From contig OZ024745.1 of the NCBI GenBank assembly GCA_964016885.1, forward strand, positions 126,728,001 to 126,792,000: a stretch of 64,000 nucleotides of DNA. The letters run 5' to 3'. Source of the stretch: Eledone cirrhosa. Its lineage: Eukaryota. Position numbers and translations under genes: made by a program. Of the stretch, positions 6,612 through 49,661 are shown piece by piece (the stretch's first letter is position 1; each line of letters starts with the position of its first letter). Under the pieces are notes generated by a model. It was not told the DNA's origin and made no database searches. It saw nothing but the letters and a program-made list of their open reading frames with translations.

Positions 6612-6888
6612 AGCTCAAGCCGTTATGGTCCATTTGGTTCCTTACCACGATTCCTTCGTTATATATATACATTATATATATATAAACATTATATATATAT
6701 ATATAAAACGAAGGAAGAGTGGTAAGGAACCAGATGGACCATAACGCACCAGAGTACTCAATACTTAGAGTAGTAGAGTGGGTAATGGGAAAATGTTTGA
6801 CCCCGACGGCAGAGCTCAAGCCGTTTCGGCGGCTATTTCTGGACCGTTGAAACAGCTTGAGCTCTGCCGTCGGGGTCAAACATTTTCC
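6612..6888. mobile_element. Penelope/retrozyme-like palindromic element carrying hammerhead 3' halves, embedded in (TA)n
   Basis: Inverted repeat 6788-6888; arms read GAAACGGC-ttgagctct-GCCGTC-ggggtca (one substitution in the right arm); second inverted pair ~6620-6660 vs 6707-6746. Confidence 0.65.
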
Positions 6889-7078
6889 TATATATATATA
6901 TACATTATATATATATATATATATATATATATATATACATTATATCTATATACATTATATCTATATACATTATCTCTCTCTCTCTCTCTCTCTCTCTCTC
7001 TCTCTCTCTCTCTCTATATATATATATATATATATATATACACACATATATACACACACATTATATCTATATATATAT

Positions 7079-7302
7079 ATATTTATTAAAATAACAGATT
7101 AAAGTTTAAGCAAAGAATCGCTGCTTTCACCCTTAACGGGATCTTCTGAAGATCCCGTTAAGGGTGAAAGCAGCGATTCTTTGCTTAAACTTTAATCTGT
7201 TATTTTAATAAATATTTGCTCTACGGTTCTTATATATTTGATATATATTTATCTTTATCGAGCCCTCTTTGGATTTTAGTCTTCAAATTTATTATTATTA
7301 CT
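7079..7302 (+). mobile_element. Palindromic element: perfect 68-bp arms (7079-7215) centred on a hammerhead core, with a 3' tail running into (TA)n
   Basis: Exact inverted repeat about T7147; CTGAAGA 7146-7152, GAAA 7166-7169. Confidence 0.75.
7144..7190 (+). ncRNA. Type I hammerhead ribozyme motif with stem I 5' strand truncated
   Basis: CUGAAGA-U-CCC-GUUAA-GGG-U-GAA-AGCA...UGCU-U; predicted CUU cleavage after 7186; only 2 bp of stem I remain. Confidence 0.55.
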
Positions 7303-7320
7303 ATATATATATATATATAT

Positions 7321-7603
7321 ATTGGCCTTGCAATCGAAAGGTGATGTGTTGTTTCCTTGAGCAAGACACTTTATTTCACATTGCTCCAGTTTACTCAGCT
7401 GTAGAAATGAGATGATAGGGACTGGGGTCCCTATCATTCTACTGCAAAGTGGTCGTGGAGGTGCCACGGCAAAAAAGCACCCAGCACTCACTGTAAATGA
7501 GGTCGGTGTTAGGAAGGGCATCCAGCTGTAGAAATCAAGGCAGAATCAGTTCTCGTCCCACCCTTGCAAGCAGGGAAAAGCGGACATAAAGTGATGATGA
7601 TGA
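7321..7603 (+). mobile_element. SINE family B (CORE/Meta-like domain, RTE-derived (TGA)n tail), 5'-truncated
   Basis: Near-identical to 35599-35938 and 61446-61762. Confidence 0.85.
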
Positions 7604-7756
7604 TATATATAATAAGGAGTTGATGGACACAGCATATTTATCAATGCCAGGACCGGTTGTATCTCAGAGTACTCAATAAGCAATGTAAGATACATTCCCA
7701 GACTATACATAGTTATTTGTTTCAATACAACACACGTAAAACAGGTGCCTATAATA

Positions 7757-7874
7757 GTTCCCAGACTCGAGTTTCGGCCACACTTAACGCAGCAGTAGGG
7801 TGCACTGCACCCTCTGTCTGCATATATTATGCAAGAATGCATAATCGGCATATGTGGCTTCATCAGCAGGTATC
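7757..7874 (-). ncRNA. Type I hammerhead ribozyme with large branched stem II
   Basis: Minus strand: CCUG-CUGAUGA-A-GCCACA-[70 nt, two hairpins]-UGUGGC-C-GAA-AC-UCGA-GU-C-UGGG; core 7860-7866, GAAA 7772-7775, GUC 7764-7766; stem I is short (4 bp, two GU). Confidence 0.8.
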
Positions 7875-8190
7875 GCCTAATCAATAACCAATCGATCAAC
7901 AGAATCTAAACCCCAGCCCATGCCGGCTATGATTGTTTGTGATGGCTGACAGAATGAAAGGCTATGTTGTAATTTGAACTCAGAATTATATATATATATA
8001 TATATATATATATATATATATATATATATATAAATAAAGTTTCTAAATTTCTCCTTTGTTATTCTGAGTTCAAATTACAACATAGCCTTTCTTTCCTGTT
8101 TGGTTAATAAAATAAGTTTTATTAATATACAGATATTTCTACACTATTTCTCACAAAAATTGATTTTCTCACTATGTAATAAATCAGTAT

Positions 8191-8419
8191 TTAACCCTTT
8201 AACATTTACATTAATCTATATATACTATTGTATTTTTATGATAAAGGCTTTACCTCATATAATTATGTCACATAATATTGAATCCATAAGATTTTGATAT
8301 TATCTATTTTGAGAATAATACCTTAACATAAGTGTGTTTGGCAAGTTACGGCTCGTTTGAACAGAAAGAGGTGAGAGAATTCTGCCCGGATATGGCCAGT
8401 TTAAATGCTAAAGGGTTAA
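8191..8419. mobile_element. TTAA-flanked piggyBac-like MITE (~225 bp)
   Basis: TTAA-CCCTTTA(G/A)CATT...AATGCTAAAGGG-TTAA; other copies at about 8937-9157, 13923-14150, 21213-21416, 21821-22049, 27864-28090, 28930-29136, 54077-54282. Confidence 0.85.
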
Positions 8420-46598: not shown

Positions 46599-46827
46599 TA
46601 GTGATTAGTTTAGCGGTTATCAAATATCAACCAATATATATATATAAATAAATAAATAAAAACTTCGATATGCGATAAACATTACATGAACATAAATTCT
46701 AGCGCATATTATACAAATAGATGTGTGTTTTGGTAGTTTGGGGAGCAGAATATAAATATTGGAGAGGCCATGGCCCCTTAGCTCCCCCAGTTCCAATGCC
46801 CTTGTATTGGGTATTATTTTGTCCACA

Positions 46828-47020
46828 TGGCGGTGGATTGGCAGTATCGGTAGAGGTTCGGACGCCATGCTTTGACGCATAGAGTTACGGCCCTTGCCAT
46901 TCTGAGTTCAAATCCCGCCGAGGTTAACTTTGCCTTTCATCCTTACGGGGTCGATAAAATAAAGTACCAGTAATGTACTGGGTAATTTTCTGGCCTTGTG
47001 CCAATAGTAGAAACAATTAT
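46828..47020 (+). mobile_element. SINE family A
   Basis: Match to family consensus. Confidence 0.85.
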
Positions 47021-47619
47021 TTTGTCCACTATAAGGTTTGCAGTAAACAGTTACTATTGTCGTGGTTTAAACTTACAAGATTGGTAGTAAAAATGTATAA
47101 CGATAAGCAGTACTAAATATTTTATCACCATCATTGTCTGTGTAATACCCAAATATTCACCCACACACATATCAGTGTGTATTTGGGGAGATATATACTT
47201 CATTAGTTTAAATGTACATCAAAGAAGCATACTTCAACATTTTCTGATAATAGGGAGAGATGGGGAGGGAGAAAGAGGTGGAGGTGATGACAGTGGGGGG
47301 TCGGCTTTTCTGTGTTCAGACCTCGTGTACAGCATCAGTTACCGTAAGGAGGTAGTAACTCTTAGTTTGAAATGATCATTTTGTTTAAACTAGTATTAAC
47401 TAGATCAAATATACTAATGCTTAGGAATTAAATCTTTAATTTTGAAACCACAGCCAACCCTCCATTTTACCATCAATCTTTTGTCACATAATTCTCGTTT
47501 GAAGCTGTGTTGTATTTTACAGAGAATTTGACACTTTTAAAATAAATGTGTTTACATAAGTGAGTGTGTAATAATATCTAATGAGTATATTTCTTCCTGT
47601 AAAGTTTAGCAAAGGGATT

Positions 47620-48038
47620 AATGATATAATAATTGTTTCTACCTTTGGCACAAGGCCAGCAATTATCCCAGTGCATTACTGGTACTTTATTTTATCGACC
47701 CCCTAAGGATGAAAGGCAAAGTTAACCTCGGCGGGATTCGAACTCAGACCGTAACTCCATGCTGCAATGATATAATAATTTTTTCTACATAGGGCACAAG
47801 GCCAGCAATTATTCCAGTGAATTACTGGCGCTTTTGCTGTATTTTATCGACCCCTTAAGGATGAAAGGTAAAGTTAACCTAGGTGTGATTTGAACTCAGA
47901 CCGTAAAGGGCCGTAACTCCATGCTGCAATGATATAATAATTTTTTCTACTTTTGGCACAAGGCCAGCAATTATCCCAGTGCATTACTGGGGCTGTATTT
48001 TATCGACCCCTTAAGGATGAAAGGCAAAGTTAACCTCG
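47620..48038 (-). repeat. Three tandem copies of a truncated SINE A unit
   Basis: Each unit begins AATGATATAATAATT; ~145-165 bp period. Confidence 0.85.
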
Positions 48039-48617
48039 AATAAAGGAAAAATGTATCTAGAAATTGCATGTATTTTATTTGTATTTGCTTTATTTTCCGC
48101 GTATCATCTCGTTAAAGTAGGTGTGTCTGTGTCTGAGAGAAGAAGAGGGTGTATATGTGTAAAAGAGAGGGGGGGGGTATAATGAATTAAATTTCTGCAG
48201 TACATTAACTCTTTCATTAGGATATTTCTAATGAAAGGACAACCCTGTCTATGATTTTTCAAGTAATTTTGAAAATAATCAAGAATTTAGAATAATCAGC
48301 TTAGTATAGTAGAAGTATGACCGGTTTGGTGTCAAAAGGGTTAAGAAATAACCATCTCTATATTCCAACATTTTCTTTCTGAATATAAATGTATTAATGA
48401 ACACCGTACACAAATATTTAGACATTACGAGTAGAAATATTTGCACTAAAAATGTAAATCTCAGTCTATCTCTCACACTTCTATACCAGTGTATTGACTG
48501 TAGAATTTATAAAATATCTGTTTTATATACACTCTCCCTTCCATAAGCATCATTATATATATATATATATATATGTGTGTGTGTGTGTATTTTTAAAATG
48601 TGCGTATATATATATAT

Positions 48618-48818
48618 ACAGCGATTGGCTGAAAAGTTCATAGGCTGACCAAGTTACTCTCATGGAATGATCAAATGAGGTTTATTTTTCAACATTATCC
48701 ATGGAAAGAAACAATTCAGTTATTAATAAGAAGAGTTGAAATTTATGCATGCAAGATTTGATAGCTCTAGCATCACTTCTTCATAGTCAGCCTATGAGCT
48801 TTTCAGCCGACCTTTGAC
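48618..48818. mobile_element. Tc1/mariner-like MITE
   Basis: TIRs GGCTGAAAAGTTCATAGGCTGAC / GTCAGCCTATGAGCTTTTCAGCC, in a TA context. Confidence 0.7.
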
Positions 48819-49476
48819 TATACGTGTTTGTATGTGTGTATTTGTATACATTAAAATGTATATATATATATATGTATGTGCGTGTATGTATACATTAGTT
48901 TTAATGCAAAGCATTTTTAACAATGCGAGACATTGAAATGTTAAGAACCTGTAGGGGCACCACCCTTTTTTGTATTGGTTTGTTGTACTTTTAAAATACC
49001 TTTCATATTTCTCGATGACGGAAAGGTACTTGTATAATAAACAAGCCAGCTGTGTTGGGTGTGTCAAATACTAATTGCAAAAATTAATTGGAGAAAGAAA
49101 CAAAAAAAAAAAGAAGTATTTAAAAAATAATCTTTGCACCTTTATTTGCAATATACATCGCCATCACACCCTATATTTCTATTAGTATGACCACGAAAAT
49201 TTAGTATTTCAGTAGTAAATGAAAAATATTAGTCGATATTAGATTATCATAAAGATGCTTATGAATGCATTTGAAATTTCGTTATTTTACTTTCTTGTGT
49301 TTGCATTGAGTACAAAAGGTTTACTATAGCTACAATTTGATTCATATATTTATTATATAGCCATATGCATGCATCAGGCTGAAACATGTTTACATAATGT
49401 ATACAATCACTCGTGTATGACATACGTACAGAGGTATGCCTGCATATATATATATATATATATATATATATATATA

Positions 49477-49661
49477 CGTTATTCTGGGTTGAATCGGAGG
49501 TAACCACAGTAAGTAAGGTACTCAATACATAGCAGAGTATAAAAGTGTTAATATAGATGAGATTCTACAGGACTAGAACTGTTTCATTCTTTAGGGATTC
49601 CTGATGATTTCTAAAGAATGAAACAGTTCTAGTCCTGTAGAATCTCATCTATATTAAAACT
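49477..49661. mobile_element. (TA)n-flanked palindromic retrozyme/Penelope-like element
   Basis: Perfect 47-bp arms 49548-49594 and 49611-49657; the spacer contains CTGATGA; GTACTCAATA at 49518. Confidence 0.75.
49594..49646 (+). ncRNA. Complete type I hammerhead ribozyme
   Basis: GGGAUUC-CUGAUGA-U-UUC-UAAA-GAA-U-GAA-ACAG-UUCUAGUC-CUGU-A-GAAUCUC; all three stems pair; predicted GUA cleavage after 49639. Confidence 0.85.

What the first reader, a model, noticed from the sequence alone, without database searches (positions are those of the whole stretch)
6788..49657. Inversion centres of independent palindromes cluster within the ribozyme
Seen: the fold-back centre falls in the core at 7147, next to or within stem II at 6788-6888, 35396-35490 and 49548-49657, and next to stem-III-like NUH sequences at 20602-20661 (ACGAUUUGUA) and 37798/40682 (CAUGUAYGUC). 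The last two assignments are tentative. In each case one arm is long and the other short, with 3' ends pointing outward into microsatellite. Established: Penelope insertions often carry an inverted truncated pLTR. Inference: RT stalls or switches template at the ribozyme structure, giving a reproducible hairpin-forming integration signature.
Basis: inference. Interest (0 to 1): 0.75.

Follow-up and report, generated by a model that had tools for sequence, protein, structure and literature searches.

The report
Penelope stubs invert at fixed boundaries
Short head-to-head mirror repeats in this animal DNA are joined inside a hammerhead-ribozyme motif, likely because Penelope-like retroelement copying starts just after the motif and stops at a fixed point within it, not because the enzyme switches strands at the ribozyme's core or cut site.

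Summary
The palindromes are real: none of comparable score appears in shuffled DNA. They are head-to-head pairs of short Penelope-like pLTR stubs in (TA)n. Only 49594-49646 holds a complete hammerhead. The 20.6-kb and 37.8/40.7-kb assignments stay unproven, and at least two palindromes centre elsewhere.

Reads from other genomic copies of one family show non-uniform breakpoints. In 11 of 14 listed strand-switch joints, one arm ends 12-21 nt upstream of GAAA. Non-inverted copies end at the same point. Only 1 of 28 joint ends lies in GAAA, stem III or the cut site. The partner arm usually ends near a second priming site about 17 nt behind the cut site.

Best reading: both broken target ends prime synthesis from two fixed sites, and both arms are capped by a fixed 5' limit. 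Any palindrome centre must therefore fall on the ribozyme. Whether stem II causes that limit is open. The architecture is known; the junction map was not found in print.

The parts
6707..6844 (-). Family A long arm. 5' end 17 nt upstream of GAAA (G12 at 6827); stem III and GUC, predicted cut between 6805 and 6804; 3' end in (TA)n
   Evidence: used as reference
6845..6891 (+). Family A short arm. Starts about 4 nt upstream of GAAA; ends about 17 nt after the predicted cut, in (TA)n
   Evidence: 41/43 identical to the long arm
6612..6660 (.).
   Evidence: reference 6813-6825 and 6707-6746
7079..7146 (-). Family B short arm, 5' end at G5 of the core
   Evidence: 68/68
7147..7300 (+). Family B long arm: core from U4, stem II, GAAA at 7166, doubtful CUU triplet; 3' end in (TA)n
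13327..13385 (+). Family A solo, non-inverted short unit with exactly the same 5' end as 6844
20602..20661 (.). Short palindrome (family D); hammerhead assignment unproven
34413..34755 (.). Counter-example: family B 3' pieces joined head to head at 34525/34526 in an internal TA run 95 nt downstream of the core, with a slipped third copy and 35-nt outer inverted arms
34856..34967 (.).
   Evidence: 37/46
35230..35385 (+). Control: complete hammerhead motif (core at 35293) copied through, about 60 nt upstream present, no inversion
35396..35565 (.). Family A palindrome: short arm 35396-35436 (-) ending in GAAA, 8-nt filler, long arm from about 35445 (+) starting 3 nt upstream of GAAA
37798..38092 (.). 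Family E palindrome; both arms start at the same CATG; 16-nt unit slipped 2.8 times at the centre; hammerhead unproven
38352..38503 (.). Counter-example: palindrome centred on a TA/GA microsatellite, no hammerhead motif; the right arm runs on into LINE-like sequence (label recalled; no Pfam hit)
40329..40363 (-). Family A solo fragment, 5' end at about reference 6840
40682..40922 (.). Family E palindrome; the long arm starts within 1 nt of the point used at 37798; 2 shared letters at the joint; hammerhead unproven
44050..44280 (+). Control: complete hammerhead motif (core at 44185) copied through, about 135 nt upstream present
49478..49594 (-). Family C long arm, 5' end in the stem II loop
49594..49661 (+). 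Family C short arm holding a complete type I hammerhead (stem I 49594-49600, core 49601-49607, GAAA 49620, GUA cut after 49639)
   Evidence: 47/47
51268..51425 (.).

Best explanation
These head-to-head repeats in (TA)n are likely made when both ends of a cut target prime reverse transcription on a short Penelope-like pLTR RNA, and their joints fall on the hammerhead motif because, in the one family tested, copies have one 3' end about 17 nt after the predicted ribozyme cut site and a fixed 5' limit about 17 nt before GAAA. SHOWN for family A: two 3' ends in (TA)n, at about 6707 and about 6787; a sharp 5' limit at 6839-6844 shared by inverted and non-inverted copies; partner arms ending mostly at or before the second 3' end; joints with 0-4 shared letters or filler. 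INFERRED: the two 3' ends are reverse-transcription start sites used from the two target strands, as in L1 twin priming and the two-strand extension shown for PAc; the two cDNAs are joined by end joining; the 5' limit is the end of the template RNA of a short non-autonomous family. A palindrome arises only when the long arm runs past the second start site, so its centre must lie in the 57 nt between that site and the 5' limit, which is the ribozyme footprint. Extension to families B, C, D and E rests on single loci.
For:: (TA)n loose ends at 6707 (207 contigs; 7812 reads), 6788 (143 contigs) and 6799 (80 contigs; 2829 reads; a subfamily whose TA begins about 11 nt further, i.e. the same site). 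Loose ends at 6844 in 197 contigs and 1248 reads, agreement only 0.41 and 0.46, i.e. unrelated flanks. 11 of 14 listed opposite-strand joints have one end at 6839-6848 (6 at 6844, and the 6848 row shifts to about 6844-6845 by its shared letters). 7 of 14 partner ends lie at 6786-6797 (P 0.007). 'side' is 57 nt for the 6786 and 6794 joints, the length of 6788-6844. Solo copy 13327 spans exactly the short unit. No shared letters in 11 of 14 joints. Raw-read depth falls only 6.5% from 6801-05 to 6826-30. At 49548 and 51270 the short arm carries the more upstream sequence, which a simple fold-back does not give. PAc cuts and extends both strands from two internal start sites, and ribozyme mutants insert normally (PMC11167929).
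Against: Only one family was tested in reads, and only 15 of 22 joints were listed. The reference itself ends at 6844, so junctions further upstream cannot appear as joints, and a family continuation in up to about half of the reads reaching 6844 is not excluded. The sharp depth drop at 6835 in the raw-read run is likely a restriction-site effect (loose end ending in AATT) and was not used. No RNA data show a 5' end at 6844, and I saw no Inr/DPE-like spacing there by eye (consensus recalled). Short reads and contigs probably under-count near-symmetric hairpins, which the window does hold (6788, 35396, 7147). In families B and C the joints sit at different features (core, stem I 5' edge, loop II), each seen once. 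No Penelope ORF was found in the window.
Confidence: 0.5

Rival explanations
1. Ribozyme structure sets the stop. The RNA continues upstream, but reverse transcriptase stalls, or the cDNA hairpin is nicked, at the stem II loop. This would give the fixed 5' end in inverted and plain copies alike.
For: 6839-6844 lies where loop II would be if A has a stem II of 20-26 nt like those at 35293 and 44185. The long arm at 49548 starts in loop II, and joints at 7147 and 34856 lie in the core. Slipped duplications at 34856 and 37798 suggest repeated stops at one place.
Against: No upstream half of stem II or CUGANGA was seen for A. A stall would be expected at the 3' foot of a stem (recalled), but depth is flat there. 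Copies at 35293 and 44185 read through. The hammerhead folds are no more stable than shuffles (z 0.01 to -0.87 for five motifs).
Confidence: 0.27
2. Fold-back self-priming (Arkhipova 2013). The first cDNA folds on a natural palindrome of the ribozyme (stem II, palindromic loop III) and copies itself, giving the inverted arm.
For: Arms within a locus are more alike than arms between loci: 68/68, 47/47, and at 40682 90/96 against about 86% to the 37798 arms. Both arms at 6788 carry the same minority variants (table 3). Family E arms start at a CATG palindrome, and the 34525 centre is self-complementary TA.
Against: 9 of 14 joints in reads have no overlap between arms if the upper arm starts at 6787. 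11 of 14 have no shared letters. The upstream-richer arm is the shorter one at 49548 and 51270. Short arms end at a site that is also the 3' end of a solo copy.
Confidence: 0.13
3. No real signal. The motif lies 60-150 nt from the 3' end, most copies are short, and the reader picked palindromes that showed ribozyme-like words.
For: Only 3 of 13 palindromes pass a strict descriptor (P=0.12 at the looser setting). Three named loci have no demonstrable hammerhead, and two clear counter-examples were omitted.
Against: The pile-up of ends at 6839-6844, both as direct joints and as unrelated loose ends, is far sharper than a decaying length distribution would give.
Confidence: 0.1

Closest known systems
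EN+ Penelope-like element insertions with an inverted 5'-truncated pLTR and a tail (PMC8557442, PMC3846280; passages read)
   Same: Head-to-head inverted truncated copy, an extension on one arm only, bias for (TA)n targets, palindromes at the inverted junction.
   Different: No ORF body here, only 60-160-nt stubs. The extension in family A is about 80 nt rather than 30-40. Junction positions relative to the ribozyme were not mapped in the passages read.
PAc, Poseidon element of Anolis carolinensis (PMC11167929; main text read)
   Same: Two internal start sites downstream of the hammerhead, both target strands cut and extended, uncleaved RNA used as template.
   Different: PAc starts about 111-118 nt into the ORF, which begins at stem II; family A's inner site is only about 17 nt after the cut. 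5' junctions of inverted copies were not analysed in the text read; supplementary Fig. S2 was not seen.
Type I hammerheads of PLE pLTRs (PMC4209133; parts 1-2 of 4 read)
   Same: Type I order in the pLTR; that paper notes pairs of minimal hammerheads on opposite strands 100-700 bp apart.
   Different: Here stem III is 4-5 bp with a 7-9-nt loop, families B and C have a short stem II opened by U-U, and family A lacks the 5' half.
L1 twin priming (PMC12016303; passages read)
   Same: Two cDNAs in opposite orientation, one primed at the 3' end and one internally, with a gap or short overlap and peaks of breakpoints.
   Different: No poly(A); priming from (TA)n at one fixed internal site; overlaps of up to 40-110 nt in window loci give true palindromes.

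Membership tests
Penelope-like element (EN+) | ORF with telomerase-like RT and GIY-YIG endonuclease | tested here: inconclusive
   No such ORF among 88 frames of 90 aa or more; 10 were scanned with Pfam and none hit RT or GIY-YIG cores. The stubs are too short to hold one, and no whole genome is held.
Penelope-like element (EN+) | Hammerhead motif in the terminal repeat | tested here: met
   Complete at 49594-49646, 35293 and 44185; family A aligns with C over GAAA, stem III and a downstream shared word.
Penelope-like element (EN+) | Inverted 5'-truncated copy joined head to head, extension on one arm | tested here: met
   13 of 14 listed read joints must be head to head from their coordinates, one (6756/6793) is ambiguous.
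Penelope-like element (EN+) | Insertion bias for (TA)n (Neptune, Naiad) | tested here: met
   Loose ends at the 3' ends have (TA)n consensus; window loci.
Penelope-like element (EN+) | Target-site duplication | not testable with these tools
   Insertions lie in microsatellites.
Type I hammerhead, family C (49594-49646) | CUGANGA, GAAA, UH and three stems | tested here: met
   stem I 7 bp with one G-U, stem II 4, stem III 4, GUA.
Type I hammerhead, family A (6788, 35396) | CUGANGA and closed stems I and II | tested here: not met
   Only the 3' half is present in 7 window pieces and in the listed loose ends (356 rows not shown). It is a homologue of the 3' half, not a whole ribozyme.
Type I hammerhead, family B (7147) | Stem I and a cleavable NUH | tested here: inconclusive
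   Stem I 5' strand lost at the joint; only triplet with a 5-bp stem III is CUU.
Type I hammerhead, families D and E (20602, 37798, 40682) | Upstream CUGANGA and GAAA | tested here: inconclusive
Hammerhead ribozyme | Self-cleavage | not testable with these tools
   No assay; Rfam gave no hammerhead among the 150 of 155 matches listed.

The most novel reading that the evidence does not exclude
Hammerhead stem II acts as a programmed stop for the Penelope reverse transcriptase, independent of cleavage. Together with a start site just behind the cut site it stamps out a 57-nt ribozyme-half cDNA that caps the second target end. The ribozyme would then be kept in pLTRs for integration rather than for cutting RNA, which would explain why PLE hammerheads cleave poorly and are dispensable for priming.
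Probability: 0.2. Interest if true: 0.65.

Novelty: new member of a known kind. Interest (0 to 1): 0.35.

Why it matters
How PLEs form inverted pLTRs, and what their hammerheads do, are called open in PMC8557442. A very abundant family with two fixed 3' ends and one fixed 5' end gives a countable genomic read-out that can separate twin priming, fold-back and structure-induced stops. The architecture itself is already described. A map of inversion joints on the ribozyme was not found in the paper searches. That library lacks most subscription papers, including Lunse et al. on PLE hammerhead variants (not held).

Tried and rejected
No whole genome is held, so the proposed genome-wide histogram could be approached for one family only, with reads and contigs. 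Runs: X17 and X21 were informative; X1 held only related subfamilies and gave no listed joint; X14 laid 0 records. The depth step at 6835 in X21 was rejected as evidence (likely a restriction site). Loose ends at 6719, 6793 and 6799 were read as subfamily divergence, not as separate ends.

Exact-pattern scans found nothing in metagenome contigs or genome contigs. Two viral-contig hits match only the 18 letters searched and are chance. Rfam gave only sub-threshold miRNA-type hairpins. Monomer folding did not recover hammerhead folds better than shuffles. Weak palindromes at 48976 and 58935 were kept in the count of 13 but not assigned.

The cut site as a favoured joint was rejected for family A (0 of 28 ends within 3 nt), although single loci (51270, perhaps 20602 and 40682) start there. 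An assembly artefact is unlikely for the class, since such joints occur in reads, but none of the named window joints was itself among the listed rows. Runs with a small share of words were not used as evidence, apart from laying X1 and X14.
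Full report
Setting. The window is 34.6% G+C animal DNA, rich in microsatellites, with an exostosin-like exon at 26333-26848. The repeats look cephalopod-like to me (recalled, not tested). No whole genome is held.

Observation. All seven named palindromes exist. A gapped scan with microsatellites masked gave 13 palindromes: 11 scoring 24 or more with spacers up to 45 nt, plus 37798 and 38427 from the wider scan. Five shuffles gave none at 24 or more. At six of the seven named loci one arm is longer and both 3' ends run into (TA)n or (TG)n.

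Which are ribozymes. A descriptor search found three convincing complete type I motifs: 49601, 35293 and 44185. Only the first is in a palindrome. At 7147 the core, stem II and GAAA are present, but C3 is the last base of the opposite arm and the triplet is CUU. Family A (6788, 35396, 13327, 40329, 6612) has GAAA, a 5-bp stem III, GUC and a stem I strand. It aligns with family C, but no core was seen. Families D and E show neither core nor GAAA. Against clustering: 34525/6 is a family B inversion 95 nt downstream of the core, 38427 has no motif, and 35293 and 44185 were copied through without inversion.

Test with reads. I laid four runs on the long arm of family A, 6706-6848, where the element reads on the minus strand. 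16,852 contigs (X17) and 21,484 raw reads (X21) of one species aligned, 283 contigs of another (X1), and none of a third (X14). 3' ends join (TA)n at two places, about 6707 and about 6787; the second is about 17 nt after the predicted cut. On the 5' side the best-supported loose end in X17 is at 6844 (197 contigs; 1248 reads in X21), with agreement 0.41-0.46, meaning unrelated flanks. Of 22 joints, 15 were listed and 14 change strand. Eleven have one end at 6839-6848 (P about 5e-7 against uniform ends in the visible range). The partner ends lie at 6742-6797, seven of them at 6786-6797 (P 0.007). One of 28 ends lies between 6800 and 6830 and none within 3 nt of the cut. Depth in the series less affected by the restriction site falls 6.5% over 6801-6830. 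Eleven of 14 joints share no letters. The solo copy at 13327 spans exactly the unit from 6844 to the inner 3' end.

Limits of that test. It covers one family. The reference stops matching at 6844, so joints further upstream are invisible and some reads may continue upstream; only one of three rows with letters in between involved 6844. 356 loose-end rows were not shown. Near-symmetric hairpins are probably under-counted by short reads. The step in depth at 6835 is likely a library restriction site and was set aside.

Mechanism. Shown: two 3' ends, one 5' limit common to inverted and plain copies, and joints with 0-4 shared letters or filler. Inferred: both ends of a cut (TA)n target prime synthesis, one at the outer and one at the inner site, and the two cDNAs are joined. 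This matches PAc, which cuts and extends both strands from two internal sites and does not need ribozyme cleavage (PMC11167929, main text), and L1 twin priming (PMC12016303, passages). If the long arm stops at or before the inner site, the result is a plain inversion, as at 6612 and in most listed joints. If it runs past, the result is a palindrome, whose centre can only lie in the 57 nt that make up the ribozyme half. The clustering is therefore real but follows from two fixed points. I think the 5' limit is more likely the end of the template (0.5) than a stop caused by stem II (0.27). Penelope has an internal promoter in its pLTR, with the start 46 nt before an intron (PMC2377424, passages) whose end maps to helix I of the ribozyme (PMC4209133), so RNA 5' ends close to the ribozyme have precedent. 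Fold-back self-priming, proposed in PMC3846280 (passages), explains identical arms but not non-overlapping arms, nor loci where the short arm reaches further upstream (49548, 51270).

Comparison. The architecture, an inverted truncated pLTR with a one-sided extension and (TA)n bias, is described for EN+ PLEs (PMC8557442, passages). Membership rests on structure and the hammerhead; no ORF was seen. The 2026 retrozyme preprint (part 1 of 5) concerns tandem arrays, not inversions. PMC6765202 was read as passages and PMC3649969 gave only a reference line. Seven paper searches showed no map of inversion joints on the ribozyme. Supplements were not read; Fig. S2 of PMC11167929 may bear on 5' ends. 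Earlier notes of this scan describe hammerhead-centred PLE palindromes in another animal, and a cut site only mildly favoured in a third. These are unchecked leads that agree with the reading here.

Verdict. Interest 0.35.

Noticed in passing
window:26333-26848 (-): Large coding exon with a weak Exostosin GT47 match (E 1.7e-5, below the curated cut-off); looks like the first exon of an EXT-family gene.
   Followed up: partly
window:7660-7800 (-): Two tandem hammerhead 3' halves, one with a palindromic CUCGAG stem III (GAAA at 7775), followed by the downstream word shared with families A and C.
   Followed up: no
window:38352-38503 and 34413-34755: Inverted duplications centred on microsatellites that seem to include flanking host or LINE-like DNA, suggesting inversions can form at (TA)n without a ribozyme.
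   Followed up: partly
window:37891-37934 and 34886-34928: Short tandem slips (16 nt x2.8; 20 nt x2.2) exactly at inversion centres, as if synthesis restarted repeatedly at a template end.
   Followed up: partly
window:44050-44085: An 8-bp inverted repeat next to (TA)n at the 5' end of the read-through copy, about 113 nt upstream of its core; may be a tiny inverted arm or chance.
   Followed up: no
loose ends at 6779-6793: Related subfamilies, also in a second species, keep the stem III and GUC/GUA pattern with changed loop and stem I letters, which fits selection on the ribozyme half.
   Followed up: partly
window:17571-18470: 48-nt minisatellite of 18.8 copies derived from part of an abundant SINE-like repeat.
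   Followed up: no
window:37093-37461: Element with long terminal inverted repeats belonging to a family with many pieces in the window, probably a MITE.
   Followed up: no
window:43402-44077 and 45897-46604: Two related fragments that resemble restriction-like endonuclease domains of non-LTR elements (recalled; no Pfam hit).
   Followed up: partly
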